Positions 1 to 43,109 of a stretch of 64,000 nucleotides of DNA are shown here, one piece after another. The position numbers were made by a program, and so were the translations under genes. Each line of letters begins with the position of its first letter. Position 1 is the first letter of the stretch. The notes below the pieces were generated by a model. That model was not told the origin of the DNA. It saw nothing but the letters and a program-made list of their open reading frames with translations, and ran no database searches. The DNA is taken from positions 198,549 through 262,548 of the forward strand of contig JACKGF010000001.1 of the NCBI GenBank assembly GCA_020632095.1, read 5' to 3'. Source of the stretch: Candidatus Nomurabacteria bacterium. Lineage in GTDB: Bacteria > Patescibacteriota > Minisyncoccia > Phycocordibacterales > UBA918.

Positions 1-741
1 AGACAAATCGACTATAACGAAGATTTTGAAAAAGATTTAACGATTGAAGAAAATTGGCCAATCAAGAAAAGCGGCGATAGAAACTGGTGGGTCTCTTCAG
101 GGGCTTATCTCTACTACCAGGACGGGGTAGGAAAAACCATTCAAGGAAACCTAGACGCTTCAGATGAATGGGTCGACAAATTTTATCGTGCCAACGCCGC
201 AGACACTGCCAATGGCTACCGTCCACAAAACATCTTTCGTCTTGTCTACAAAAAACGTGCGCGGGATTTTACTCAATCAGTCTACGGAAAAATTAATTAT
301 TACGAGATAAGCGATAGCGAAAACCGTAACGCTTCAAACGGTATACTTCTGTTTAACCGCTATCAAGATGAATTTTCTTTGTATTACGCTGGAGTAAGAG
401 TTGATGGACAAGCTGTAATTAAGAAAAAACTTAATGGTACATATTCCACTCTAGCCGTATCACCGTTGTTCGCCGGCCAATACGATAGAGAGAAGAACCC
501 TAATCTGATTCCACTCGATACATGGATCGGTATCAAAACTGTAGTCACTACTTTAGATAAAAAATCGACTAAAATTAGTCTCTACACTGACGTTGGCCGA
601 ACTGGTAATTGGACTCTAGCACTTGAAGTAGTAGATGACGGTAAGCAATACGACAAAGCTATCACTAGAGCTGGCTACGGCGGAATTCGAACTGATTTTA
701 TGGATGCCTCATTCGACGACTTTAGTTTCAAGACACCTTAA
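1..741 (+). CDS. 3' portion of a gene that begins upstream of the window; hypothetical beta-rich (lectin/glucanase-like?) protein
   Basis: Frame 1 is open from base 1 to the stop at 739-741. The ORF track shows only the internal Met at 379. No recognisable catalytic motif. Confidence 0.5.
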   Translation, partial: RQIDYNEDFEKDLTIEENWPIKKSGDRNWWVSSGAYLYYQDGVGKTIQGNLDASDEWVDKFYRANAADTANGYRPQNIFRLVYKKRARDFTQSVYGKINYYEISDSENRNASNGILLFNRYQDEFSLYYAGVRVDGQAVIKKKLNGTYSTLAVSPLFAGQYDREKNPNLIPLDTWIGIKTVVTTLDKKSTKISLYTDVGRTGNWTLALEVVDDGKQYDKAITRAGYGGIRTDFMDASFDDFSFKTP

Positions 742-2385: not shown

Positions 2386-4983
2386 ATGCATAAGCGTTTT
2401 GAACATCAAGAAATTGAAACTAAGTGGCAACAGCAGTGGCGAACTGATGATATTTATAAAACCACTGACAATTCTGAAAAACCAAAAGCTTTTGTGCTGG
2501 ACATGTTTCCGTATCCTTCAGGAGAAGGTCTGCACGTTGGTCATCCGAAAGGTTACATCGCTACCGACATCTACTCTCGGTATAAAAGAATGACCGGCTA
2601 CGAAGTACTACACCCGATGGGTTGGGACGCTTTTGGTTTGCCAGCGGAAAACTACGCGATAAAAAACAAAGTGCACCCACGGGTAGCAGTTGAGAAAAAC
2701 GTTGCCCGCTTTAAAGAACAACTTGAAGTCTTAGGCTTTGATTATGACTGGAATAGGGAAATCAATACCACTGACCCTGCCTATTACAAATGGACCCAGT
2801 GGATTTTTATTCAACTGTTCAAAAAAGGTTTAGCTTACGAGAGTTACGAACCAATCAACTGGTGTCCGGGCTGTCAGACTGGATTAGCTAATGAAGATTT
2901 AGAGGCTGACGGTACTTGCGAGCGTTGTAATTCGGTTGTAGAAAAAAAACCGATGCGACAGTGGGTACTAAAGATCCGCGAGTACGCTGACCGCATGCTC
3001 GCAGACCTAGATACGCTAGAGTGGCCAGAGCATATCAAGGAAGCCCAGCGTAACTGGATAGGGCGCTCTGAAGGCGCAGAAATCGACTTCAAGCTGTCTA
3101 CTGGCGACACAGTGACAGTGTTTACCACTCGACCCGATACGCTCTTTGGAGCAACTTATATGGTCCTAGCCCCAGAACATCCAATTGTCACCGAACTTAT
3201 TAGGGGTCAGACCCCTAATGGAGTGAATTTGCAGAACAGGGGGGAGGTGGAGGAGTATGCGAAGGAAGTTGCCAACAAAAAGGAGATGGACCGACTCGAT
3301 GACACTAAAGAAAAAACGGGTGTGAAGTTAGAAGGTGTCACCGCCACCAACCCAGCTAACGGTGAAGAAATCCCGGTTTATATCGCCGATTATGTACTAG
3401 CCGGCTACGGTACCGGCGCCATCATGGCCGTGCCAGCCCACGATGAGAGAGACTTTGAGTTTGCTAAGAAGTTTAAGATTGAAATCAAAAGAGTTTTACA
3501 CGGCACCTTAAGTGAAAGCTCGGCATATGAGCTAGCAAACCAAAGAAATGAGGAGTTTGACTATAGTGCTGAAGTTGATGATAAAAATTTCAACCTAACA
3601 AAATACCGAACAAGTCTCGAAAAAACTCTTAATGATAAGTGGGATGAAGACTTGGAATCAGGCGCAATTTTAGGACGAGTTCTTGGGGGCAGTAACAACA
3701 AAACTATAAATCCACTTCCTTTACTTGATAACTTCATATTGAAAAACTCTAATGAGTTTGACGGAATGAGTCCTAAGGAAGCTGGAAAAGCAATCATCGA
3801 AAAAGTTGGTGGGAGAATGACTGCTACATACAAAATCAAGGACTGGGTATTTTCGCGACAACGGTATTGGGGGGAGCCGATTCCGATTGTGCATTGTGAG
3901 CAGTGTGGAGCGGTGCCGGTGCCGGAGGAGCAATTGCCGGTGACTTTGCCAGAGGTGGAGAATTATGAGCCGGCCGGCGACGGGCAATCGCCTTTGTCGA
4001 CGATTGAAGAGTGGGTGAACACTACTTGTCCTAAGTGTAGTAGAGCCGGCCGGCGGGAGACCAACACGATGCCGCAATGGGCGGGTTCTTCCTGGTACTA
4101 CTTACGCTACATGGACCCTAAAAATTCTGAGACTTTGGTATCAAAAGAAAATGAGAAATATTGGGCGCCAGTAGACGTATATGTAGGTGGGGATCACGCA
4201 GTTAGACACCTCATCTATGCTCGTTTTTGGCACAAATTCCTGTATGACATCGGTGTCGTATCGACGATTGAACCCTTCCAACGATTAGAGTTTCTTGGAT
4301 TTATCTTGGCTGAGGATGGACGCAAGATGAGTAAGCGGTGGGGGAACGTGATAAACCCAGATGATATTGTAAAACTAGTTGGGGCAGACACAATGCGAAT
4401 CTATGAGATGTTTATGGGACCATTTGAAAACACTATCGCATGGTCACAAGATGGTCTTGTCGGCGCTAGACGCTTTCTAGAGAGAGTCAATGGACTAACT
4501 GAGCATATTACAGATACTGAACCAAAAGAAACTACTGTTCAGCTACATAAAACTATTAAAAAAGTGTCTGAAGATATTGAAGGATTTAAATTCAATACCG
4601 CGGTGAGTGCCATGATGATCTTTCTCAATCAAGCAGAAAAAGGTGGACTCACTAAAGAAAGTTACCTGACATTCATAAAACTTATCGCCCCGTTTGCTCC
4701 CCACATCACCGAAGAACTTTGGTTGGAAACTGGAGGAAGTAGTATCCATCTAACTAATTTTCCAGTTTACAGTGAGGCACTAGCTAAAGATGAGTTAGTC
4801 ACAATTGGCGTACAAATTAATGGCAAAATGCGAGGAGAGATAACCATATCACCCGAAGCGACTGAAGAAGAGGCAGTGGAAACAATAATGAAAAATGGGT
4901 CGTTAGCTGACAAAATTACTGACCACAATATTAAGAAAATAATCTATGTTAACGGAAGAATTATTAACATTATTTTAACCTGA
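2386..4983 (+). CDS. leuS: leucyl-tRNA synthetase
   Basis: HIGH-type motif PYPSGEGLHVGHPKGY and KMSKS motif KMSKRWGN. Editing-domain signatures TTRPDT and AVPAHDERD are present. Length 865 aa. Confidence 0.95.
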   Translation: MHKRFEHQEIETKWQQQWRTDDIYKTTDNSEKPKAFVLDMFPYPSGEGLHVGHPKGYIATDIYSRYKRMTGYEVLHPMGWDAFGLPAENYAIKNKVHPRVAVEKNVARFKEQLEVLGFDYDWNREINTTDPAYYKWTQWIFIQLFKKGLAYESYEPINWCPGCQTGLANEDLEADGTCERCNSVVEKKPMRQWVLKIREYADRMLADLDTLEWPEHIKEAQRNWIGRSEGAEIDFKLSTGDTVTVFTTRPDTLFGATYMVLAPEHPIVTELIRGQTPNGVNLQNRGEVEEYAKEVANKKEMDRLDDTKEKTGVKLEGVTATNPANGEEIPVYIADYVLAGYGTGAIMAVPAHDERDFEFAKKFKIEIKRVLHGTLSESSAYELANQRNEEFDYSAEVDDKNFNLTKYRTSLEKTLNDKWDEDLESGAILGRVLGGSNNKTINPLPLLDNFILKNSNEFDGMSPKEAGKAIIEKVGGRMTATYKIKDWVFSRQRYWGEPIPIVHCEQCGAVPVPEEQLPVTLPEVENYEPAGDGQSPLSTIEEWVNTTCPKCSRAGRRETNTMPQWAGSSWYYLRYMDPKNSETLVSKENEKYWAPVDVYVGGDHAVRHLIYARFWHKFLYDIGVVSTIEPFQRLEFLGFILAEDGRKMSKRWGNVINPDDIVKLVGADTMRIYEMFMGPFENTIAWSQDGLVGARRFLERVNGLTEHITDTEPKETTVQLHKTIKKVSEDIEGFKFNTAVSAMMIFLNQAEKGGLTKESYLTFIKLIAPFAPHITEELWLETGGSSIHLTNFPVYSEALAKDELVTIGVQINGKMRGEITISPEATEEEAVETIMKNGSLADKITDHNIKKIIYVNGRIINIILT

Positions 4984-5003
4984 AACAAGTTATCCACAGA
5001 GTA

Positions 5004-5032
5004 TTGACCAATTCTAGTGAATATGTTATAAA
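5004..5032 (+). promoter_or_regulatory. sigma70-like promoter TTGACC-N17-TATAAA
   Basis: Hexamers read directly upstream of the 5084 gene. Confidence 0.35.
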
Positions 5033-5083
5033 GTGAGTCACGCATTGGAGATTCAACAAAAATACAACTACAAACCATAAAAT

Positions 5084-6109
5084 ATGATTTCATTTAAACC
5101 AAAACAAGTAACTAAAGCACTGCTAGAGGTATTACCTGAGCGAGCTCGTGACGTCCTTGAAAAACGTTATGGACTCGGAAGCACAGGTGACACTCTAACC
5201 TTAGAAGCGATTGGCCAATCGTACGGCATCACACGTGAAAGAGTACGACAAATTGAAAACTATGGTATTCAATCAATCCAGAAGTCTGAAGTGTACAAAA
5301 AAGACTATGATCTTTTTATCGAGATGCAAAAACTCATTGACCAATTGGGTGGTGGTTTAATTGCTGAACATGTACTACTTGAGGAATTGAGTTCCGACCC
5401 GATTGTTCGAAATCACCTATATTTTCTATTGGTAGTAGGTGACCCATTCTTTAAGAGCAAAGAAAACCCAAACTACTCTCACCGTTGGTTCACTGAAAGA
5501 GGAATTGCTGATTCAGTAGAAAAAGCTCTCCGAAATGTCCACAAAGGACTAAATAGAGACGAACTAGTAAGTGAAGCTGAGATATTAAGTCGTTTCAAGA
5601 ACGAATTAATTGAACTGGCTGATAAATACGATGAGGAGGTTCTGAAGCGATGGCTACAGATTTCTAAACAAATTGGTCGCAATCCGCTAGGGGAGTGGGG
5701 CTCAGCTGACAGTCCAAACGTAAGAGTTAAAGGAATTCGTGACTATGCTTACCTTACAGTTAAGCGACATGGTTCACCAATGCACTTCCGTGAAGTAGCT
5801 GAAACAATCAACGAACTATTTGATCACAAAGCGCATGTCGCCACTACCCACAATGAACTTATCAAGGATGCACGATTTGTTTTGGTTGGTCGCGGCCTAT
5901 ACGCTCTGACCGAGTGGGGATACACCACTGGTGTAGTTAAAGACGTACTACGAGAGATTCTAGCTCAGGAAGGACCACTTTCAAGAGAGGAACTTATCGA
6001 TAAGGTTCGCAAAGAACGATACGTTAAAGACAATACCATTTTAGTAAATCTCCAAGATACTAACTTATTTAAGAAGTTATCAAACGGCACTTACGCCATT
6101 GCTGACTAA
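5084..6109 (+). CDS. sigma-70 region-4 (HTH) domain protein with a long unrelated C-terminal region
   Basis: N-terminus LEVLPERARDVLEKRYGL...TLEAIGQSYGITRERVRQIE resembles RpoD region 4. No sigma regions 2 or 3 are present. Confidence 0.5.
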   Translation: MISFKPKQVTKALLEVLPERARDVLEKRYGLGSTGDTLTLEAIGQSYGITRERVRQIENYGIQSIQKSEVYKKDYDLFIEMQKLIDQLGGGLIAEHVLLEELSSDPIVRNHLYFLLVVGDPFFKSKENPNYSHRWFTERGIADSVEKALRNVHKGLNRDELVSEAEILSRFKNELIELADKYDEEVLKRWLQISKQIGRNPLGEWGSADSPNVRVKGIRDYAYLTVKRHGSPMHFREVAETINELFDHKAHVATTHNELIKDARFVLVGRGLYALTEWGYTTGVVKDVLREILAQEGPLSREELIDKVRKERYVKDNTILVNLQDTNLFKKLSNGTYAIAD

Positions 6110-36643: not shown

Positions 36644-36675
36644 GTGTTGCGTAATGTTTCCAAAAGCAAAATTTT

Positions 36676-36704
36676 TGACATTTAGGTCTTCTGGCTTTAT
36701 AATG
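36676..36704 (+). promoter_or_regulatory. grpE promoter TTGACA-N17-TATAAT, 8 nt before ATG
   Basis: Perfect consensus hexamers. Essentially a leaderless transcript. Confidence 0.6.
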
Positions 36705-36712
36705 CGAAAAGT

Positions 36713-37315
36713 ATGGTGAATATGAAAAATAATGACGACGATTTCGAAACTGAAATCACCAACGAGGACGGAAATGATATTGAATTACCCGAGTTAGAGG
36801 ATATTGAGGAACGCACGGAGGATAAAATTAAGAAATTAAGACAAAAATTATCCGAGTGTGAAGAGGAGAAAAAAGCGATTTTGGATGAGTCACAACGAAC
36901 GAAAGCTGACTTCCTAAACGCCCGCAAACGACTAGAAGACGAAAGGGCACGCGACCGCATCCGTTACCGCAAGCAACACGTTGAAGAGTTACTACCACTG
37001 TGTGACAGTTTTCAGATGGCCATGAGTAATAAAGAAGCCTGGGAGAAGGCGGACCCAGCTTGGCGGGTCGGAATTGAAGGAATTCACAGTCAATTACTGA
37101 ATATACTCAATTCTTATGGAGTAAAGGCGGTATCGCCAGAAGGCGAGGTTTTCAGCCCTCATCAACACGAAGCGATTGGCACCGAAGACGTCGAAGATGA
37201 AGCACTACACGACAAGATAGTTAGTGTGGTACAAAAAGGTTACGAGATGACTACGGGTGACACGACAGAAACTATCAGACCAGCCCGAGTCACCACTGGA
37301 ATAAAGATTAAGTAA
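36713..37315 (+). CDS. grpE: nucleotide exchange factor GrpE
   Basis: Acidic N-terminus, coiled coil, GrpE C-terminal domain. Sits upstream of dnaK. Confidence 0.85.
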   Translation: MVNMKNNDDDFETEITNEDGNDIELPELEDIEERTEDKIKKLRQKLSECEEEKKAILDESQRTKADFLNARKRLEDERARDRIRYRKQHVEELLPLCDSFQMAMSNKEAWEKADPAWRVGIEGIHSQLLNILNSYGVKAVSPEGEVFSPHQHEAIGTEDVEDEALHDKIVSVVQKGYEMTTGDTTETIRPARVTTGIKIK

Positions 37316-37428
37316 GTAAACGAACGTAGCGACTATTGCGAACTTATGTCCGAATTTGCGCGTTTCAAGCGCAAACTCCTGGACGAACTAGACCTGACAA
37401 TTAATTAGAAATATTGTATACAAAATAT

Positions 37429-39333
37429 ATGGCAAAAATACTTGGAATTGACCTAGGAACAACTAACTCAGCCATTGCTGTTATCGAAGCAGGCGAGCCA
37501 GTTATTATTGAAAATAGTGAGGGTACCAGAACTACACCATCGGTCGTAGCTATTTCGAAAACTAACGAGCGACTAGTGGGACAAATCGCTAAGCGACAAG
37601 CAGTTACCAACCCCACCAACACCATTTATGGTATTAAGCGCTTCATGGGCCACAACTACGATGACGAAGTAGTTACCAAAGACAAAGACATCGTTCCTTA
37701 TGAAATCAAGAAGGGAGCTGACGGTGGAGCAGTGGTAGTGATGGATGGTAAAGAATACCGTCCGGAGGAAGTTTCAGCTATGATTCTGACCAAGCTTAAG
37801 AATGACGCTGAATCAAAACTCGGAGAAAAAATCACCGAAGCTGTTATTACTGTACCAGCCTATTTCAACGATGCTCAACGCAAATCAACTCAAGACGCGG
37901 GAAAGATTGCCGGACTAAATGTCCGTCGTATCATCAACGAACCGACTGCAGCCGCTCTAGCTTACGGATTTAACAAGAAGAAGGACGAGAAGTTAGTAGT
38001 CTACGACTTCGGTGGTGGAACCTTTGACGTCAGTGTGCTAGAAGTGGGTGATGACGTGATCGAAGTTCAATCGACTGACGGTGACGCTCACATGGGAGGA
38101 CGAGATATTGACCAAGGTATCGTACGATTTCTAATTGACGAATTCAAAAAGTCAGAAGGAATTGATTTAGGTAAAGACAAGCTAGCCTTGCAACGTCTAG
38201 ATGAGGCCGCTGAAAAAGCTAAGCATGAACTCTCATCAACTACTGAAACCAACGTAAATATTCCATTCATTTCCTCAAACGCTGAAGGTCCAAAACACAT
38301 GGACATCAAAATGACCCGCGCAAAACTGGAAGAACTGTCACATGAATTTGTTGACAAATCTATCGAAATCACTAAGCGTGCGCTGGAAGCTTCTGGACTA
38401 AAGAAAGAAGATATTGACGAAATTATCCTAGTTGGAGGGCAGACTCGCATGCCAGCTATTCAGAATGCGGTGAAGGAGCTATTTGGTAAAGAACCAAACC
38501 GAACCATCAACCCAGACGAAGTGGTAGCTCTCGGGGCAGCAATTCAAGCTGGTATTTTTCAAGGTGACGTACAAGACATTACTCTAGTAGACGTTATTCC
38601 ACTTTCACTTGGTATTGAAACTATGGGTAGTGTAAACACTAAGTTAATTGAAAAAAACACTCACATCCCAACCAAGAAGCAACAAGTCTTTTCAACGGCC
38701 GCCGACAATCAAACCTCTACCGAAATTCACATCGTACAAGGAGAACGACCAATGGCGAGCGACAACAAATCTCTTGGGCGCTTTGTCCTAGATGGTATTC
38801 CACCAGCTCCGCGTGGCGTGCCACAGATTGAAGTAACTTTCGATGTTGATAGTAACGGTGTACTCAATGTGACCGCCAAAGACAAATCAACCGGCAAAGA
38901 GCAATCTATCCGTATCGAAGCAACTTCAGGTCTAACTGACGAAGATATAGAAAAAATGAAGAAGGAAGCAGAAGACCATGCTGAAGAAGATGCTAAGAAA
39001 AAAGAAATTATTGAAGTTCGCAATCAAGCTGAACAGCTAGTCTACACCGCTGAGAAATCCCTAAAAGACCACGAGAAGGAAGTACCAGCTGATGTTAAAA
39101 CTGAGATTGAAGAGAAAGTTAAAAGCCTGAACGAGGTAAAAGAAAAAGACGACAAAGCAGCTATCGAAACCGCCACTGAAGCACTCTCAAATTCACTACA
39201 AAAAATTGGTGAAATAATGCAAAAAGCGGCCGAGGAAGCAGCCAAAAAGACTGAAGGAAACGAAGAAAAGAAAGATGACGAACCAGTCGTACATGAAGCT
39301 GAAGAGGCTGACTCCGACAAGAAAGACAAGTAA
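37429..39333 (+). CDS. dnaK: chaperone DnaK (Hsp70)
   Basis: [26 protein letters not shown] and the rest of the Hsp70 signature. The track start at 37414 is 5 codons upstream. Confidence 0.95.
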
Positions 39334-39436: not shown

Positions 39437-40504
39437 ATGAAAGACTACTACACAATTCTCGGTCTTGAAAAAGGCGCCCCCAAAGACGAAGTCAAAAAAG
39501 CCTTTCGTAAAATGGCGGCTAAGTACCATCCCGACAAAAAAACCGGTGATGAGGAAAAATACAAAGAAATCACTGAAGCCTATGCTGTATTGAGTGATGA
39601 TAAGAAAAAAGCCGAGTACGATACCTACGGCCACGCCTTTAGTAATAGTGGTGGGGGAGGAGCGGGAGGGTTTAACTGGCAGGATTTCCAAGGTGCACAA
39701 GGCGGTTTTGGAGGACAAGGTTTCGAATTTGATATAAATGACATTTTCCAAAACTTTGGTTTTGGTGGCGGTGGACAACAAGTTCAACGAGGACGTGATG
39801 TTTCCATTGACATCAATTTAAAGTTTGAAGAAGCGATTTTTGGTGTGACCAGAAAACTATTAATCACCAAAAACAATACCTGTGTACACTGTGACGGCAC
39901 TGGGGCCAAAAAGGGAACTGAGATGAGTAGTTGTACAACCTGTGGTGGCAATGGAAAAGTACGCGAAACCAGACAAAGTATCATGGGTAGCTTTACCACT
40001 GTCCGTGAGTGTCATGTCTGTAACGGTACTGGTAATGTACCCAAGGAGCGTTGTGGACACTGTGCTGGAGCGGGGATTGCTCGTACCGAAGAAGAAATTT
40101 CTATCAAGGTACCGGCCGGTATCAGTAACGGAGAAGTAATTCGTATGACTGGTCGCGGTGAAGCCGTGTCAAATGGACAACCAGGTGACTTATACATCAA
40201 GGTCCATGTCGAAGCTCACAAGAGTATCCGGCGCGACGGCTCAACTCTTACTATTGCGCTACCTATCAAGCTAACCGACGCATTACTTGGAGCCACTTAT
40301 ACCGTCACCACTCTAGACGGTAACGTTGATATTAAAATTCCAGCTGGTATTGCTCACGGTGAACTAATTCGTATTAAAGAGAAGGGTGTCCCTGGCGACC
40401 GTGGCCGTGGTGACTTCATGGTCAAAATCTCCATCGAAACCCCGAAGAAACTTTCCAAACAAGCCACCAAATTGGTTGAACAACTACGCGAGGAGGGTAT
40501 ATAA
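39437..40504 (+). CDS. dnaJ: co-chaperone DnaJ
   Basis: J domain with HPD, a G/F-rich region, and four CxxCxGxG zinc-finger repeats. Confidence 0.9.
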   Translation: MKDYYTILGLEKGAPKDEVKKAFRKMAAKYHPDKKTGDEEKYKEITEAYAVLSDDKKKAEYDTYGHAFSNSGGGGAGGFNWQDFQGAQGGFGGQGFEFDINDIFQNFGFGGGGQQVQRGRDVSIDINLKFEEAIFGVTRKLLITKNNTCVHCDGTGAKKGTEMSSCTTCGGNGKVRETRQSIMGSFTTVRECHVCNGTGNVPKERCGHCAGAGIARTEEEISIKVPAGISNGEVIRMTGRGEAVSNGQPGDLYIKVHVEAHKSIRRDGSTLTIALPIKLTDALLGATYTVTTLDGNVDIKIPAGIAHGELIRIKEKGVPGDRGRGDFMVKISIETPKKLSKQATKLVEQLREEGI

Positions 40505-40547
40505 CAAACAGCGGGCTTGGGAAAAGATAAATCTTTTCCCAAGCCCG
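40490..40547 (+). repeat. dnaJ 3' end plus terminator hairpin, copy 1 of a 58-bp direct repeat (copy 2 at 41129-41186)
   Basis: gaggagggtatataaca.acagcgggcttgggaaaagataaatcttttcccaagcccg. Perfect 17-bp stem terminator at 40512-40547. Confidence 0.8.
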
Positions 40548-40560
40548 CTGGCCTTTAGGC

Positions 40561-40845
40561 CTACATCAGGTCACCAGTCTTTTCGCACGAGACTGACTGC
40601 TGGTCAACCATATCTGGCAGTCTTTCGAGAATCATACCCAATCTCACCATGATTGCCTGAAACAGAGTTAGCAATCCCGTAAATGCAAACGCCGCCGCAC
40701 AAGCTCCATAAACAGCTGAGGACACTTGTGTTTCAACTATAATAGAGATAAATATCATGCCCATGGAAGCGAAGAAATACAAAGTGGAAACAAGCGTACT
40801 TCTGACTAAATTCCTCTTCTCTTCTTGAATTGAAAGAACCTTCAT
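40561..40845 (-). CDS. small 2-TM membrane protein, hypothetical
   Basis: GGAGG SD upstream of the ATG. Confidence 0.4.
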   Translation of the reverse strand: MKVLSIQEEKRNLVRSTLVSTLYFFASMGMIFISIIVETQVSSAVYGACAAAFAFTGLLTLFQAIMVRLGMILERLPDMVDQQSVSCEKTGDLM

Positions 40846-40909
40846 TTTTTTCCTCCAAAAGAATTAAAATATTTCTTAAAATTATACACACAAACCTGCT
40901 TTTGTCAAT

Positions 40910-41143
40910 ATGCACCAACCTCCACGTTTTGATTTTGAAGACAAAAAATTTCCTGACAGTGATTTTGCGCTGCACGAACAAATCATTGAAGACCGTGGTA
41001 GTCGGTACTCAGTTAGCTATGGCCAGGTGGGGAGCAGGGAAGACATCAAACTTTTTCTTAAACAACTCAAGCAAAACAAAAAATACGCCAGCGCCACCCA
41101 CAACACTTGGGCCGCTCGCATTAGCCACGAGGAGGGTATATAA
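40910..41143 (+). pseudogene. chimeric gene fragment: 5' 75 codons of yigZ fused in frame to the last codons (EEGI*) and terminator of dnaJ
   Basis: 40902-41128 is nearly identical to 41611-41842 (one 3-nt indel, one substitution). It then switches to the dnaJ-end repeat at the microhomology acgaggag. Confidence 0.65.
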
Positions 41144-41306
41144 CAGACAACGGGCTTGGGAAAAGATAAATCTTTTCCCAAGCCCGTAACAATTATTCTT
41201 ATTATTCTTTAATTTCCTGGAACTAACAATCTTTTTTTCTAAACATCAACCGCTTTAGCAATCTCATTTATCTGTTGCGGTACTCATGTAAATGAGTCAT
41301 GAAAAG

Positions 41307-41510
41307 TTAACGATCTTCTTCTGTCATCTGCGACGTACCTTCAGCTAATTCAAGCAGTGCATTTAACGCCTTGACAGTAGTTGCCGCTTCCTGCACGAAA
41401 AGCACAAAAGCTAGCTTCATCCTGTACAACCGCACTATGGCAACAATCGCCACAATAGTCATCACAACAAAACCGATAAGACAAATAGTCGCAAGAGTGT
41501 TCATTTTCAA
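41307..41510 (-). CDS. small single-TM protein (67 aa), hypothetical
   Basis: AAGGA SD, a hydrophobic core, then a charged tail. Confidence 0.35.
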   Translation of the reverse strand: MKMNTLATICLIGFVVMTIVAIVAIVRLYRMKLAFVLFVQEAATTVKALNALLELAEGTSQMTEEDR

Positions 41511-41540
41511 TTCCTTTAATCAAAAAATGTTTTGAATTAC

Positions 41541-41573
41541 AAGGGATGCTACTTGAGAGGTAGCTGGGGGGGT
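41541..41573 (+). mobile_element. solo IS30-family terminal-repeat remnant
   Basis: gctacttgagaggtagctggggg matches the right end of the intact IS30 (tcctacttgaggggtagctggagg at 23191-23214). Confidence 0.4.
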
Positions 41574-41618
41574 ACAAAATCCTTGCTATATTATACATAT
41601 AATATTATAATTGTCAAC

Positions 41619-42038
41619 ATGTCGCACCAACCTCCACGTTTTGATTTTGAAGACAAAAAATTTCCTGACAGTGATTTTGCGCTGCACGAACAAATCATTG
41701 AAGACCGTGGTAGTCGGTACTCAGTTAGCTATGGCCAGGTGGGGAGCAGGGAAGACATCAAACTTTTTCTTAAACAACTCAAGCAAAACAAAAAATACGC
41801 CAGCGCCACCCACAACACTTGGGCCGCTCGCATTAGCCACGAAGGTGTGATCTACGAAACCAAAGCCGACGATGGTGAAACCGGAGCAGGGATGGTCATT
41901 CTTCGAATCATGCAAAAAGAGCAGGTGACCAACTGTGTAATTTGTGTCACGCGCTGGTTTGGGGGAGTGAAGCTGATGGGGGACCGCTTCAAACATGTCC
42001 AAGACGCCACCAAATACGCTATTGATTCATTCTCCTAA
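41619..42038 (+). CDS. yigZ: YigZ/IMPACT-family protein (UPF0029)
   Basis: ASATHNTWAARISHE...DDGETGAGMVILRIM...CVTRWFGGVKLMGD matches the IMPACT N-domain signature. Two TATAAT boxes at 41598-41611 lie 7 nt before the ATG. The track ORF starts at 41532, but ATG 41619 is the likely start. Confidence 0.8.
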   Translation: MSHQPPRFDFEDKKFPDSDFALHEQIIEDRGSRYSVSYGQVGSREDIKLFLKQLKQNKKYASATHNTWAARISHEGVIYETKADDGETGAGMVILRIMQKEQVTNCVICVTRWFGGVKLMGDRFKHVQDATKYAIDSFS

Positions 42039-42088: not shown

Positions 42089-42574
42089 ATGAGCTGGATA
42101 TACGTTTTTGATTTTTTGACTGAAATTGCATTTTTGCTTTTGGTATTTACTCTGGCTTTGTGCTTTGCGATTTTCGTCGGCCGACAAGCCATTATGAACT
42201 TAATATTTGGTCTATATCTGGCCCTATTAATTTCAATTGAATTTCCGTACTACGACACTATTTTCAAAGGTTTGACCAGCGACCATACGCAGGCTGGAGC
42301 CAAACTCGGATTCTTCCTCTTTATTACCACTCTCACCACCACACTCTGCTATCGCGTCATGCCCTCCGAATTTAGAGAAAAACGCTTTGAAAGTATACCC
42401 AAAAAGGCCATCCTGGCTCTGGCGGCTACGATTTTAGTGATGATATTTAGTTTTAATGTCCTGCCGGTCACTGAATTCCTCACCCCTAGTACCCCCATCC
42501 AATCCCTCTTCGCCCCTGAAGCCTACTACTTCTGGTGGCTCCTAGCCCCGTTGGTGGTTTTGTACTTTGTATAA
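42089..42574 (+). CDS. hypothetical polytopic membrane protein
   Basis: Four hydrophobic helices. Confidence 0.5.
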   Translation: MSWIYVFDFLTEIAFLLLVFTLALCFAIFVGRQAIMNLIFGLYLALLISIEFPYYDTIFKGLTSDHTQAGAKLGFFLFITTLTTTLCYRVMPSEFREKRFESIPKKAILALAATILVMIFSFNVLPVTEFLTPSTPIQSLFAPEAYYFWWLLAPLVVLYFV

Positions 42575-42577
42575 AAA

Positions 42578-42627
42578 ACGCGGCCTTTTGGGCCGCGCAC
42601 GGTTGAAATGCAACCGTTCATTTTTTT
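42578..42627. terminator. two consecutive hairpins serving convergent genes
   Basis: cgcggcc-tttt-gggccgcg and acggttg-aaatg-caaccgt followed by a T7 run. Confidence 0.55.
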
Positions 42628-43109
42628 GCTTCTTCTTGAGCTCGCTTATTCAAAAGCTCGGCAATTCGATTATCATACTCGTCCCAGTCGATACCAAATT
42701 TTGCACACATTTCACGCTCTTGCTGTGAGGCGTACTGGTGGCACTTGAAGTATGGACAATCTGGATCATCGCCAGGTTCTGAAGCGTCACCTGGTTTCCG
42801 ACGTGAGTCATACTCCATGTCGAACTCATCGATCATCCGGTTTGTTATTCCGGCCTCCCAACAGAGAGGAATTTCTGACAGCTCGTGAAAAGCGATCAGA
42901 TATTCCATCCGCCAGTCACCCATATCCGATACAAGGATGACAAGTGATCCGAATATGTTGTAGTAATAGTCACCAACGGTATTATACCGTTGTTTTTTGT
43001 GATCAATTACCTTTATTTTGAAATCTGGATGTTTCCGGGTCGAACTATATCGTTCATCCCAGAAATTACTCCAGAAGCCAATCCACAACCCATCAATACT
43101 CTTAAACAT
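42618..43109 (-). CDS. hypothetical protein (163 aa)
   Basis: Intact ORF with no recognised motif. Contains Cys/His pairs (CPYFKCH). Confidence 0.45.
   Translation of the reverse strand: MFKSIDGLWIGFWSNFWDERYSSTRKHPDFKIKVIDHKKQRYNTVGDYYYNIFGSLVILVSDMGDWRMEYLIAFHELSEIPLCWEAGITNRMIDEFDMEYDSRRKPGDASEPGDDPDCPYFKCHQYASQQEREMCAKFGIDWDEYDNRIAELLNKRAQEEAKK

What the first reader, a model, noticed from the sequence alone, without database searches (positions are those of the whole stretch)
40490..41842. Microhomology-mediated duplication creating a yigZ-5' / dnaJ-3' chimera
A 58-bp block is present twice, at 40490-40547 and 41129-41186. It consists of the last dnaJ codons (EEGI*) plus a perfect 17-bp stem terminator. 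The first about 230 bp of yigZ, including its ATG and 75 codons, is also present twice, at 40902-41128 and 41611-41842, with only one 3-nt indel and one substitution. In the upstream copy the yigZ fragment runs straight into the dnaJ-end block at the shared heptamer acgaggag. The result is an in-frame 77-aa chimeric ORF ending in the dnaJ stop and terminator. The near identity implies a recent event. Two small SD-preceded membrane-protein genes on the minus strand (40561-40845 and 41307-41510) sit immediately 3' of each repeat copy.
Basis: seen in the sequence. Interest (0 to 1): 0.6.

Follow-up and report, generated by a model that had tools for sequence, protein, structure and literature searches.

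The report
Two stacked small-gene cassettes with recombination scar
Between the chaperone gene dnaJ and a yigZ-like gene of a tiny wastewater bacterium, two unrelated small membrane-protein genes sit in tandem, separated by a recombination scar that reads as a 77-codon yigZ/dnaJ fusion. This is a known kind of event, caught at a site that swaps such genes across the whole lineage.

Summary
The dnaJ end plus hairpin is present twice (59 nt, 2 substitutions). The first 75 codons of the yigZ-like gene are also present twice (219 nt identical). They meet at 41128-41130 to give an in-frame 77-aa ORF. The same junction occurs in four other assemblies, one with SNPs elsewhere, so it is not an assembly artefact.

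The microhomology is 3 nt (CGA), not 7-8 nt. The two segments between the repeats (330 and 400 nt) are unrelated, so this is not a simple tandem duplication.

Each repeat unit is a complete minus-strand transcription unit:
- a perfect TTGACA-N16-TATAAT promoter touching the yigZ ATG;
- an orphan small membrane ORF (94 or 65/67 aa);
- a hairpin terminator whose U-tract overlaps the dnaJ stop.

In about 70 related Paceibacteria loci the dnaJ-yigZ gap (2-1468 nt) holds 0-4 such minus-strand genes, unrelated between species. One distant relative (L024) carries an independent dnaJ-end scar.

Best reading: two alternative cassettes of a hypervariable slot were stacked by one illegitimate join between two copies of the locus. 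The chimeric ORF is the scar. This is a new member of a known kind and of moderate interest.

The parts
39437..40504 (+). dnaJ (355 aa), the last gene of grpE-dnaK-dnaJ. Its last 16 nt belong to repeat block A.
   Evidence: Pfam DnaJ, DnaJ_CXXCXGXG and DnaJ_C; ORF list.
40489..40547 (.). Block A: the dnaJ end (CGAGGAGGGTATATAA), a short spacer and the hairpin core. First copy.
   Evidence: Direct repeat family D2, 59 nt, 97% identical to 41128-41186.
40499..40550 (-). Terminator 1: a 19-20 bp hairpin (40509-40550) followed on the minus strand by UUUGUUAUAU, which overlaps the dnaJ stop codon. It terminates the 94-aa gene and probably also dnaJ (bidirectional).
   Evidence: Terminator scan; fold -42.9 kcal/mol, z -8.9.
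40561..40845 (-). Cassette B gene: 94-aa orphan protein with two hydrophobic segments, GGAGG 7 nt before the ATG.
   Evidence: ORF; hydropathy; no homologue among 5.8 billion proteins other than itself; no Pfam, PHROG, PADLOC or NCBIfam family above noise.
40881..40908 (-). Promoter P1: perfect TTGACA-N16-TATAAT on the minus strand. Its -35 box ends 1 nt from the ATG of the chimeric ORF.
   Evidence: 12/12 match; only 3 perfect sites in 64 kb against 0.07 expected.
40902..41130 (+). Block C: copy of the yigZ-like 5' end (start codon plus 74-75 codons). 40912-41130 is 100% identical to 41624-41842.
40910..41143 (+). 77-aa chimeric ORF: YigZ-like residues 1-73 (lacking Ser2) fused to DnaJ EEGI*. 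Read here as a recombination scar, not a functional gene.
   Evidence: ORF. Pfam Impact_N matches only profile positions 1-44 of 107, at 24.6 bits, below the cut-off of 27. Annotated as hypothetical protein H6784_00985.
41128..41130 (.). Junction: the 3-nt microhomology CGA shared by yigZ (CCACGA|AGG) and dnaJ (CGCGA|GGAGG).
   Evidence: Overlap of repeat families D1 and D2; three-way comparison.
41128..41187 (.). Block A': second copy of the dnaJ end plus hairpin. Substitution 40511 G>A is matched by 40548 C>T (41187), which keeps a stem base pair.
   Evidence: sequence.
41140..41187 (-). Terminator 2: a 17-18 bp hairpin (41150-41187) followed on the minus strand by UGUCUGUUAU. It terminates the 65/67-aa gene.
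41307..41510 (-). Cassette D gene: 67-aa (TTG start) or 65-aa (ATG 41504) orphan protein with an N-terminal transmembrane helix and an acidic C-terminus.
   Evidence: ORF; hydropathy; no homologue found; no family hit.
41590..41617 (-). Promoter P2: perfect TTGACA-N16-TATAAT on the minus strand. Its -35 box ends 1 nt from the yigZ ATG.
   Evidence: The same arrangement occurs in about 20 related loci.
41611..41842 (+). Block C': the 5' part of the intact yigZ-like gene that is duplicated in block C.
41619..42038 (+). Intact yigZ-like gene: 139 aa, Impact_N (UPF0029) domain only, with no C-terminal YigZ domain.
   Evidence: Pfam PF01205 at 89.6 bits, positions 1-107 of 107. TIGR00257 scores 57 bits, below its cut-off of 168.

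Best explanation
The dnaJ-yigZ spacer of this Paceibacteria lineage is a variable 'slot'. A strong minus-strand promoter abuts the yigZ start codon. A hairpin terminator abuts the dnaJ stop codon. Between them lies a small membrane-protein gene that differs from strain to strain and species to species.

In this genome, two copies of the locus carrying different cassettes (B = 94 aa, D = 65/67 aa) recombined aberrantly. The two copies were most likely the resident chromosome and DNA taken up from a related strain. One side was anchored by ordinary homology in a conserved flank. On the other side, yigZ codon 75 of one copy was joined illegitimately to dnaJ codon 351 of the other, at a 3-nt CGA microhomology. 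This is homology-facilitated illegitimate recombination, or an equivalent unequal exchange.

The donor cassette was therefore added next to the resident one instead of replacing it. Both cassettes kept their own promoter and terminator. The leftover flank pieces (75 yigZ codons, 5 dnaJ codons, stop, hairpin) form a scar that happens to be an in-frame 77-aa ORF.

Shown: the repeats, the junction, its recurrence in independent assemblies, the unrelatedness of B and D, the promoter and terminator signals, the variability of the slot, and an independent scar in another species.

Inferred: the one-step anchored mechanism, the expression of the cassettes, and the non-functionality of the chimera.
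For: 1. Geometry is A-B-C|A'-D-C', with B and D unalignable.
2. The junction has 3 nt of microhomology, within the range I recall for illegitimate joins.
3. The junction is present in L002 (ERZ28655857), L008 (ERZ27248697), L001 (GCA_020428725.1, 6 SNPs elsewhere) and L007 (ERZ27309364), as well as in the window. The window appears to come from a 997-kb NCBI contig.
4. Differences between the repeat copies cluster at the cassette-side edges. Block A has 2 substitutions plus a compensatory stem change, and the left edge of C has a 3-nt indel and a T/C change. The 219-nt core has none. At the rate seen in A, P(0 differences in 219 nt) is about 6e-4. This is as expected for two alleles sharing conserved flanks.
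5. dnaJ-yigZ synteny holds in 70 of 108 related loci, with gaps of 2-1468 nt. Of 45 gaps of at least 150 nt, 31 hold minus-strand hydrophobic ORFs and 3 hold plus-strand ones. These ORFs are unrelated between species. A relative 90% identical in yigZ (L117) has a third, different 162-aa membrane gene there.
6. The promoter is perfectly conserved against the yigZ ATG in about 20 related loci.
7. L024, a distant relative, has 18 dnaJ 3' codons repeated after its first small gene. The repeat is 100% identical in amino acids with 9 nucleotide differences, all synonymous. The second copy therefore diverged as part of a working dnaJ and came from another lineage. Its terminator hairpin is repeated again before the third small gene.
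8. No recombinase or transposase lies within about 10 kb.
9. The same logic (anchor plus illegitimate end, with old genes shifted and flank remnants left) has been proposed for T6SS orphan-immunity arrays and Rhs/CDI loci (PMC5361080).
Against: - No strain carrying only B or only D between dnaJ and yigZ was found. The two 'alleles' are therefore inferred, not observed separately. No conspecific sequence exists in the GTDB-representative or JGI collections.
- L007 shows cassette D, not B, upstream of the same junction. On this model that needs a second event: unequal crossing-over between C and C', or excision.
- The perfect identity of C and C' could equally reflect a very recent in-situ duplication or gene conversion.
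- Natural transformation and HFIR have not been demonstrated in these uncultured bacteria.
- Promoter and terminator calls are consensus matches only.
Confidence: 0.45

Rival explanations
1. Two-step origin, closest to the first reader's idea. First, a plain microhomology-mediated tandem duplication (replication slippage or template switch) of the 712-bp unit A'-D-C within one chromosome gave dnaJ-A'-D-C|A'-D-C'-yigZ. Later, ordinary homologous recombination with DNA from a strain carrying cassette B replaced the upstream D copy, using dnaJ and the 219-nt C block as homology arms.
For: - L007 (ERZ27309364) is a closed 712-bp de Bruijn cycle reading D-C*|A'-D. That is exactly what a pure tandem duplication of the D unit would give, and it has the same junction.
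- The edge differences (substitutions in block A, ATG versus ATGTCG) travel with cassette B, as expected if B arrived by allelic replacement.
- The synonymous-only pattern in L024 is also compatible with replacement of the functional dnaJ end after a duplication.
Against: - It needs two independent rare events at the same 1-kb spot.
- The D-C|A'-D arrangement can also arise secondarily from the window's arrangement, by unequal crossing-over or excision between the 219-nt repeats.
- No assembly shows dnaJ directly followed by A'-D.
Confidence: 0.33
2. Artefact or extrachromosomal circle. The chromosome is really dnaJ-A-B-C-yigZ, and the junction belongs to a separate 712-bp circle (C|A'-D) or to a chimeric assembly path. 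Short-read graphs cannot phase across the 219-nt repeat.
For: - The k-mer content of 'tandem' and 'chromosome plus 712-bp circle' is identical for k below 219.
- Short-read contigs break at the repeat ends: L003 at 41130, L119 at 41702, L002 55 nt into C'.
- L007 is a closed cycle.
Against: - The junction itself needs real reads, and it recurs at the same base in four datasets built with different assemblers.
- The SPAdes scaffold L002 runs dnaJ-A-B-C|A'-D-C' without a break.
- The window comes from a 997-kb single contig. It probably belongs to the Nanopore plus Illumina activated-sludge MAG set of PMC8518188, but that provenance is inferred.
- A 712-bp circle has no replication function and could only be a transient excision product of the tandem form.
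Confidence: 0.07
3. Site-specific cassette system. The hairpin acts like an integron attC or a Xer/dif-type site. Small-gene cassettes are inserted by a recombinase, and the repeats are recombination sites rather than scars.
For: - Repeated hairpins separate successive small genes, both here and in L024.
- The cassettes are single small ORFs in one orientation.
Against: - The repeats include coding sequence of both flanking housekeeping genes: 219 nt of yigZ and 16-56 nt of dnaJ.
- The junction lies inside both ORFs, not at the hairpin.
- Hairpin sequences differ completely between species.
- No integrase or recombinase lies within about 10 kb.
- Multi-gene gaps in L010, L016, L017 and L089 have no repeated hairpin.
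Confidence: 0.04
4. The 77-aa chimera is a new functional gene, for example a dominant-negative or regulatory fragment of the YigZ-like protein, retained by selection.
For: - The ORF is intact and in frame, ends at a strong terminator, and is conserved in all junction-bearing assemblies, including a 78-aa variant.
Against: - It keeps only 44 of 107 positions of the Impact_N domain.
- The TATAAT that sits 7 nt before the ATG of the intact gene is replaced by GCTTTT in the chimeric copy, and no plus-strand promoter or SD is predicted there.
- Being in frame has a 1-in-3 chance.
- No relative among 108 loci has a second yigZ fragment.
Confidence: 0.05

Closest known systems
Homology-facilitated illegitimate recombination (HFIR) in naturally transformable bacteria (Acinetobacter, Streptococcus pneumoniae, Pseudomonas stutzeri; cited in PMC5361080 and PMC3240628)
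   Same: - One homologous anchor plus one illegitimate end-join at a few nucleotides of microhomology.
- The result is addition of donor DNA next to resident DNA, with a partial duplication of the anchor-side or flank sequence.
   Different: - Here it is inferred from the end product only.
- Donor and recipient are two versions of the same locus, so the 'foreign' DNA is an alternative cassette and both flanks are homologous.
- The organism is an uncultured CPR bacterium in which transformation has not been tested.
Sequential-displacement arrays: orphan immunity genes in Vibrio cholerae T6SS clusters, and orphan C-terminal/immunity modules of Rhs and CDI loci (PMC5361080)
   Same: - A constant flank and variable modules.
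- New modules are added rather than replacing old ones.
- Remnants of the 3' end of the constant gene are left between retained small genes.
- Heterogeneous arrays arise that duplication alone cannot explain.
- L024 and the multi-gene gaps of L010, L016 and L017 look like older arrays of this type.
   Different: - No toxin or effector, T6SS, Rhs or CdiA gene is present. The flanks are housekeeping genes (dnaJ and an Impact_N protein).
- The cassettes are single orphan membrane ORFs with their own strong promoter, on the opposite strand.
- An immunity function is pure speculation.
Microhomology-mediated tandem duplication (replication slippage, template switching)
   Same: - A head-to-tail repeat of flank sequences with a novel junction at short microhomology.
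- A chimeric in-frame ORF at the junction.
- Instability through the resulting direct repeats.
   Different: A true tandem duplication repeats the whole unit. Here the internal 330-400 nt of the two units are unrelated, so duplication alone does not explain the structure.
Integron gene-cassette arrays
   Same: - Arrays of small, often orphan, single-ORF cassettes in one orientation, separated by hairpin-forming repeats.
   Different: - No integrase, attI or attC-type imperfect palindrome is conserved.
- Each cassette has its own promoter.
- The repeats contain pieces of the neighbouring housekeeping genes, and the junction is not at the hairpin.

Membership tests
Simple tandem duplication | The two units are copies of one another over their whole length. 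| tested here: not met
   Only the flanks are repeated (59 nt and 219-232 nt). 40551-40880 versus 41190-41589 gives no blastn hit better than E = 0.66, and the two proteins give no blastp hit.
Simple tandem duplication | A single novel junction with short or no homology. | tested here: met
   One junction at 41128-41130 with the 3-nt overlap CGA.
HFIR / anchored illegitimate integration | An illegitimate join at a microhomology of a few nucleotides (about 3-10 nt in my recollection of the experimental work; not checked here). | tested here: met
   CGA is shared by yigZ and dnaJ at the join.
HFIR / anchored illegitimate integration | Donor DNA distinct from the recipient, integrated next to a homologous anchor. 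| tested here: inconclusive
   - B and D are unrelated, and the edge differences travel with B.
- The L024 scar differs from the resident dnaJ only by 9 synonymous changes.
- No single-cassette parent strain was found.
HFIR / anchored illegitimate integration | DNA uptake (competence) and RecA-dependent anchoring in the organism. | not tested
   Competence and recA genes were not searched for in this window or genome. This needs the whole genome and experiments.
Sequential-displacement (orphan immunity, Rhs, CDI) arrays | An upstream polymorphic toxin or effector gene whose 3' end is displaced. | tested here: not met
   The upstream gene is a canonical DnaJ (Pfam). No toxin, Rhs, CDI or T6SS domain was found in the ORFs scanned by Pfam between about 32.3 and 55.9 kb, and PADLOC, run on four ORFs next to the junction, gave no hit.
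Sequential-displacement (orphan immunity, Rhs, CDI) arrays | Remnants of the constant gene's 3' end between retained small genes. | tested here: met
   The window has 5 dnaJ codons plus the stop at 41128-41143. L024 has 18 dnaJ codons at 4987-5042.
Integron cassette array | An IntI integrase and attI next to the array. | tested here: not met
   No integrase or recombinase domain was found in the ORFs scanned by Pfam between about 32.3 and 55.9 kb.
Integron cassette array | attC sites (imperfect palindromes with conserved R/L boxes) at cassette ends, with junctions at the site. | tested here: not met
   The hairpins are perfect palindromes and species-specific. The junction lies in coding sequence 20 nt upstream of the hairpin.
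YigZ / IMPACT family (label used for the duplicated gene) | An N-terminal UPF0029 (Impact_N) domain. | tested here: met
   PF01205 at 89.6 bits, full length 1-107.
YigZ / IMPACT family (label used for the duplicated gene) | The full-length two-domain YigZ architecture (about 205 aa, TIGR00257). | tested here: not met
   The protein has 139 aa. TIGR00257 scores 57 bits against a cut-off of 168 and covers profile positions 19-109 of 205. The gene is an Impact_N-only protein.

The most novel reading that the evidence does not exclude
The dnaJ-yigZ spacer of Paceibacteria is a dedicated, conserved high-expression slot. It has a perfect sigma-70 promoter abutting yigZ and a terminator abutting dnaJ. 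Its payload, an orphan small membrane protein, is exchanged and occasionally stacked by flank-guided recombination between strains. This is functionally analogous to orphan-immunity or surface-variation loci, and the window catches a bistable intermediate. Deletion between the C repeats leaves only cassette B, and deletion between the A repeats leaves only cassette D. The 712-bp cycle in ERZ27309364 would be the excised or amplified D unit. The payloads would then matter for host attachment, phage exclusion or inter-strain competition in these episymbionts.
Probability: 0.3. Interest if true: 0.65.

Novelty: new member of a known kind. Interest (0 to 1): 0.4.

Why it matters
Taken alone, the chimeric ORF is a recombination scar of little functional interest.

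It is useful as a dated, base-resolved footprint of how gene content changes in uncultured, reduced-genome CPR bacteria. It shows that alternative cassettes at one locus can be stacked by an illegitimate join, and it leaves an intermediate that can resolve to either allele.

Together with the independent scar in L024 and the lineage-wide pattern, it points to a small recombination hot spot next to the heat-shock operon. The pattern is a conserved perfect promoter and terminator, with unrelated orphan membrane ORFs in between. These bacteria appear to turn over highly expressed small membrane proteins at this spot. That is a testable entry point into strain-level variation and possibly host or phage interaction in Patescibacteria.

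Tried and rejected
- **Conspecific sequences.** I looked for single-cassette parents in GTDB species representatives and JGI metagenomes, using the YigZ-like protein. The best hits were only 83-84% identical, so no parent alleles were found.
- **Exact-protein look-ups.** These gave only short contigs from ENA, Logan and NCBI. All break at the repeats. The exact DnaJ protein is not on record.
- **Homologues of the 94-aa and 67-aa proteins.** None were found in 5.8 billion proteins. Pfam, PHROGs, PADLOC and NCBIfam gave nothing; one PHROG hit at E = 0.003 over 21 hydrophobic residues was treated as noise.
- **Relatedness of the gap-encoded small proteins.** All-against-all blastp clusters only near-identical loci. 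Neither window protein joins any cluster.
- **Flank scars in the other loci.** Among the dnaJ-yigZ gaps of at least 150 nt (45 loci plus the window), only L024 has a direct scar. L046, L049 and L050 show inverted repeats downstream of dnaJ, which I did not pursue.
- **yigZ 5' remnant in L024.** Nothing significant.
- **Repeated hairpins in the multi-gene gaps of L010, L016, L017, L089 and L093.** None.
- **Mobile-element explanation.** No recombinase or transposase domain was found in the ORFs scanned by Pfam between about 32.3 and 55.9 kb.
- **Within-species cassette polymorphism among the JGI loci.** Pairs at least 99.9% identical downstream share the same cassette. The one discordant pair (L039 and L046) is a contig that diverges at the yigZ start and is too short to interpret.
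- **Not attempted.** Structure prediction of the orphan proteins: with no alignment available, a model would be meaningless.


Full report
**What is in the sequence**

The region follows the heat-shock operon grpE (36713-37315), dnaK (37414-39333) and dnaJ (39437-40504). Downstream, the layout is A-B-C|A'-D-C':
- A (40489-40547): the last 16 nt of dnaJ, a short spacer and a hairpin.
- B (40548-40901): carries a 94-aa ORF on the minus strand (40561-40845).
- C (40902-41130): the start codon and first 74-75 codons of the yigZ-like gene.
- A' (41128-41187): a second copy of A.
- D (41188-41610): carries a 65/67-aa minus-strand ORF (41307-41504/41510).
- C' (41611-41842): the 5' part of the intact 139-aa gene (41619-42038).

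The repeat finder gives 219 nt at 100% identity for C/C' and 59 nt at 97% for A/A'. With one 3-nt indel and one substitution, the C homology reaches 232 nt. ORF 40910-41143 encodes 77 aa ending ...ARISHEEGI*, which is YigZ-like up to His-Glu and then DnaJ's EEGI-stop.

**Corrections to the description**

Aligning the chimera with its two parents shows that only CGA (41128-41130) is common to both parents at the join. yigZ reads CCACGA|AGGTG and dnaJ reads ACGCGA|GGAGGG. The 'shared heptamer' does not exist.

More importantly, B and D are unrelated. blastn with 7-nt words finds nothing better than E = 0.66, and the two proteins give no blastp alignment. A tandem duplication would have repeated the whole unit. 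Here only the flanks are repeated.

**Is it real?**

The exact 77-aa product and its neighbours occur in other public assemblies:
- L002, a SPAdes scaffold of SAMN08389252, equals window 39700-41678 at 100%. It runs dnaJ-A-B-C|A'-D into C'.
- L008, a MEGAHIT contig (k = 141) from ERZ27248697, spans C|A'-D-C'.
- L001, a MAG contig of GCA_020428725.1, starts 25 nt before the junction. It differs from the window by 6 SNPs over 6.9 kb.
- L007, from ERZ27309364, carries the same junction in a variant context.

A junction that recurs at the same base in four datasets, built with different assemblers and in strains that differ elsewhere, cannot be a chimeric read or a graph artefact. The window itself matches proteins annotated on a 997,259-nt NCBI contig of 'Candidatus Nomurabacteria' (locus tags H6784_00980, _00985 and _01000). 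That contig probably belongs to the Nanopore plus Illumina activated-sludge MAG set (PMC8518188), but this provenance is my inference.

Short-read contigs break at the ends of the 219-nt repeat, as expected.

**What the units are**

The promoter scan finds perfect TTGACA-N16-TATAAT sites on the minus strand at 40908-40881 and 41617-41590. There are only three perfect sites in the 64-kb window, against 0.07 expected. The third is the grpE operon promoter at 36675-36703.

In both units the -35 hexamer ends one base from the ATG of the yigZ copy. The conserved 'TTGTCAA' upstream of yigZ is therefore the small gene's -35 box.

The hairpins are called as minus-strand intrinsic terminators. Their U-rich tails (UUUGUUAUAU and UGUCUGUUAU) overlap the dnaJ stop codon, and they fold at -42.9 and -30.9 kcal/mol with z about -8.9.

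Each unit is thus a complete minus-strand transcription unit: promoter, SD, small hydrophobic ORF, terminator. It is bounded exactly by the yigZ start and the dnaJ stop. The scar retains just what cassette D needs on its 3' side (terminator plus U-tract) and what cassette B needs on its 5' side (promoter).

The substitution 40511 G>A in A' is matched by 40548 C>T (41187), which preserves a stem pair.

**Comparative evidence**

The YigZ-like protein retrieved 28 loci from GTDB species representatives and 80 from metagenomes. All are Paceibacteria/Patescibacteria and none is conspecific (at most 84% identity).
- dnaK-dnaJ-gap-yigZ-m161 synteny holds in 70 of them, and the dnaJ-yigZ gap ranges from 2 to 1468 nt.
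- Of the 45 gaps of at least 150 nt, 31 contain at least one minus-strand hydrophobic ORF of 40 aa or more. Only 3 contain a plus-strand one. Nearly every gap over 300 nt has one, and L010 has four, L024 three, and L016, L017 and L089 two each.
- These proteins (about 50-100 aa, mostly two transmembrane segments) cluster only between near-identical loci. Neither window protein resembles any of them or anything in 5.8 billion proteins.
- Where orthologues exist (L040 and L046), dN/dS is 0.30 without indels, against 0.09 for the adjacent yigZ. They are therefore real, fast-evolving genes.
- The perfect minus-strand promoter abutting the yigZ ATG is conserved in about 20 related loci. In L040, L045 and L046, conservation runs through promoter and SD and stops at the small ORF.
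- A relative 90% identical in yigZ (L117) carries a third, unrelated 162-aa membrane gene at the same place.

The spacer is therefore a conserved expression slot with a hypervariable payload.

**An independent scar**

In L024 (JBGSJJ010000016; YigZ 72% identical), the last 18 codons of dnaJ recur after the first small gene (4476-4531 versus 4987-5042). The amino-acid sequence is identical (KLSRKARQLIEDLKKEGI*), while 9 of 56 nucleotides differ, all at synonymous third positions.

Such a pattern cannot arise by neutral decay of a dead copy. The two copies diverged while both were parts of working dnaJ genes, so the scar was imported from another lineage.

Its 28-nt terminator hairpin is repeated again, at 100% identity, before the third small gene. 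The same kind of event has thus happened at least twice more at this locus in a distant species. No other locus shows a direct scar.

**Mechanism**

The simplest single event that yields A-B-C|A'-D-C' is recombination between two copies of the locus carrying different cassettes. One side has a homologous crossover in a conserved flank. On the other, yigZ codon 75 is joined illegitimately to dnaJ codon 351 at CGA. This is homology-facilitated illegitimate recombination, described for transformable bacteria. It has been invoked for orphan-immunity arrays in Vibrio T6SS clusters and for Rhs/CDI loci, where remnants of the constant gene's 3' end also separate retained small genes (PMC5361080; PMC3240628).

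The distribution of differences fits two alleles with shared flanks. All differences lie at the cassette-side edges, and the 219-nt core has none. At the rate seen in A, P(0 differences in 219 nt) is about 6e-4.

No recombinase or transposase lies within about 10 kb, and the junction lies in coding sequence, not at the hairpin. This argues against a site-specific cassette system.

**The complication**

L007 is an 853-nt MEGAHIT contig whose first and last 141 nt are identical, so it is a closed 712-bp cycle. It reads A'-D-(ATGTCG edge)-C*-CGA junction-A'-D. C* carries 4 SNPs, and three of them are the states seen in L117.

The SNPs phase cassette D, not B, upstream of the junction. The length of 712 bp is exactly the C-to-C' spacing. 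The cycle could therefore be any of three things:
- a D-D tandem array;
- a product of unequal crossing-over between C and C';
- the circle excised by C x C' recombination.

I give 0.45 to one-step stacking and 0.33 to the two-step route. Both require an exchange between different alleles, and both share a single origin of the junction.

**The chimeric ORF**

It keeps 44 of 107 Impact_N positions and scores below the Pfam threshold. It also lacks the TATAAT that sits 7 nt before the ATG of the intact gene. That arrangement suggests a leaderless yigZ mRNA. The chimeric copy has GCTTTT in its place, and no plus-strand promoter is predicted there. L117 has a similar upstream sequence before a full-length gene, so this argument is weak.

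I regard the ORF as a scar (probability of function about 0.05).

The gene called yigZ is an Impact_N-only protein of 139 aa. It scores below the TIGR00257 cut-off.

**Consequences**

The direct repeats make the arrangement resolvable in two ways. Recombination between C and C' deletes A'-D and leaves B only. Recombination between A and A' deletes B-C and leaves D only. Either outcome restores an intact single-cassette locus.

The junction predates the strain diversification seen in the assemblies (6 SNPs in 6.9 kb in L001; 4 SNPs in C*). It is therefore 'recent' only relative to species divergence.

**Verdict**

This is a real structural variant. It is a new example of a known process: illegitimate, microhomology-level joining that stacks alternative modules and leaves flank remnants. 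It sits in a lineage and at a locus where this had not been noted.

The chimera itself is ordinary. The conserved high-expression slot with orphan membrane payloads is the more interesting by-product, and it deserves read-level and expression follow-up.

Noticed in passing
window 40881-40908 and 41590-41617 (minus strand); L013, L017, L037, L038, L040-L042, L044-L046, L048, L049, L051-L053, L055, L058 next to the yigZ start: A perfect TTGACA-N16-TATAAT promoter on the minus strand, with its -35 box touching the yigZ start codon, is conserved across many Paceibacteria species. The small ORF it drives is unrelated between species. There are only three perfect sites in the 64-kb window, and the third is the grpE operon promoter (36675-36703).
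   Followed up: partly
L024:4476-4531 versus 4987-5042; hairpin 5044-5071 = 5484-5511: A distant relative has an independent scar. Eighteen dnaJ 3' codons are repeated between its small genes with 100% amino-acid identity and 9 synonymous nucleotide differences. In addition, a 28-nt terminator hairpin is repeated at 100% identity before the third small gene.
   Followed up: yes
L007 (ENA ERZ27309364 k141_636276), equal to window 41131-41842 closed on itself: A closed 712-bp assembly cycle (141-nt terminal overlap) places cassette D upstream of the same junction, with 4 SNPs in the yigZ fragment. It is either a tandem amplification of the D unit or an excised circle. This is unresolved.
   Followed up: partly
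L117 (Logan SRR19984972_1394755), 21-509 minus strand: A relative 90% identical in yigZ carries a third kind of payload upstream of yigZ: a 162-aa protein with an N-terminal membrane segment and a long charged, possibly coiled-coil tail.
   Followed up: no
window 41596-41619; many related loci: TATAAT or CATAAT lies 7 nt upstream of the yigZ ATG, with no Shine-Dalgarno sequence. This suggests that the yigZ-like mRNA is leaderless and that its -10 box interlocks with the -35 box of the divergent small-gene promoter.
   Followed up: no
window 39647-39700 (dnaJ Gly/Phe-rich region): Two contigs from different assemblers and samples (L002 and L005) both start at exactly 39700, and the only two SNPs of L003 lie at 39647 and 39682. 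This looks like a strain-variable or low-coverage spot in the G/F linker of dnaJ.
   Followed up: no
L039:1-100 (Ga0307935_1001672) versus L046: A contig 98% identical to L046 inside yigZ diverges completely from codon 2 upstream (ACA in place of ATG, with unrelated sequence before it). This is either another rearrangement at the yigZ 5' end or a chimeric contig. Only 87 nt of upstream sequence are available.
   Followed up: partly
L046:3039-3086/3251-3298, L049:973-999/1179-1205, L050:1308-1352/1520-1564: In three related loci, inverted repeats of 27-48 nt (73-93% identity) flank about 200 nt just downstream of dnaJ. They could be long hairpins or miniature inverted-repeat elements.
   Followed up: no
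window 42089-42574 (+) and 42618-43109 (-): A conserved 161-aa multi-pass membrane protein always follows yigZ in the relatives, and it has no family assignment. The 163-aa protein after it is also unassigned, and tblastn detected a homologue of it in only one of the first 28 loci (L021); the later survey of all loci did not report it.
   Followed up: no
L036:5383-5952 (+): In one relative the dnaJ-yigZ gap holds a 189-aa plus-strand ORF instead of a small minus-strand membrane gene. From its sequence it looks like an acetyltransferase, but I did not check this. It is an exception to the slot's usual payload.
   Followed up: no
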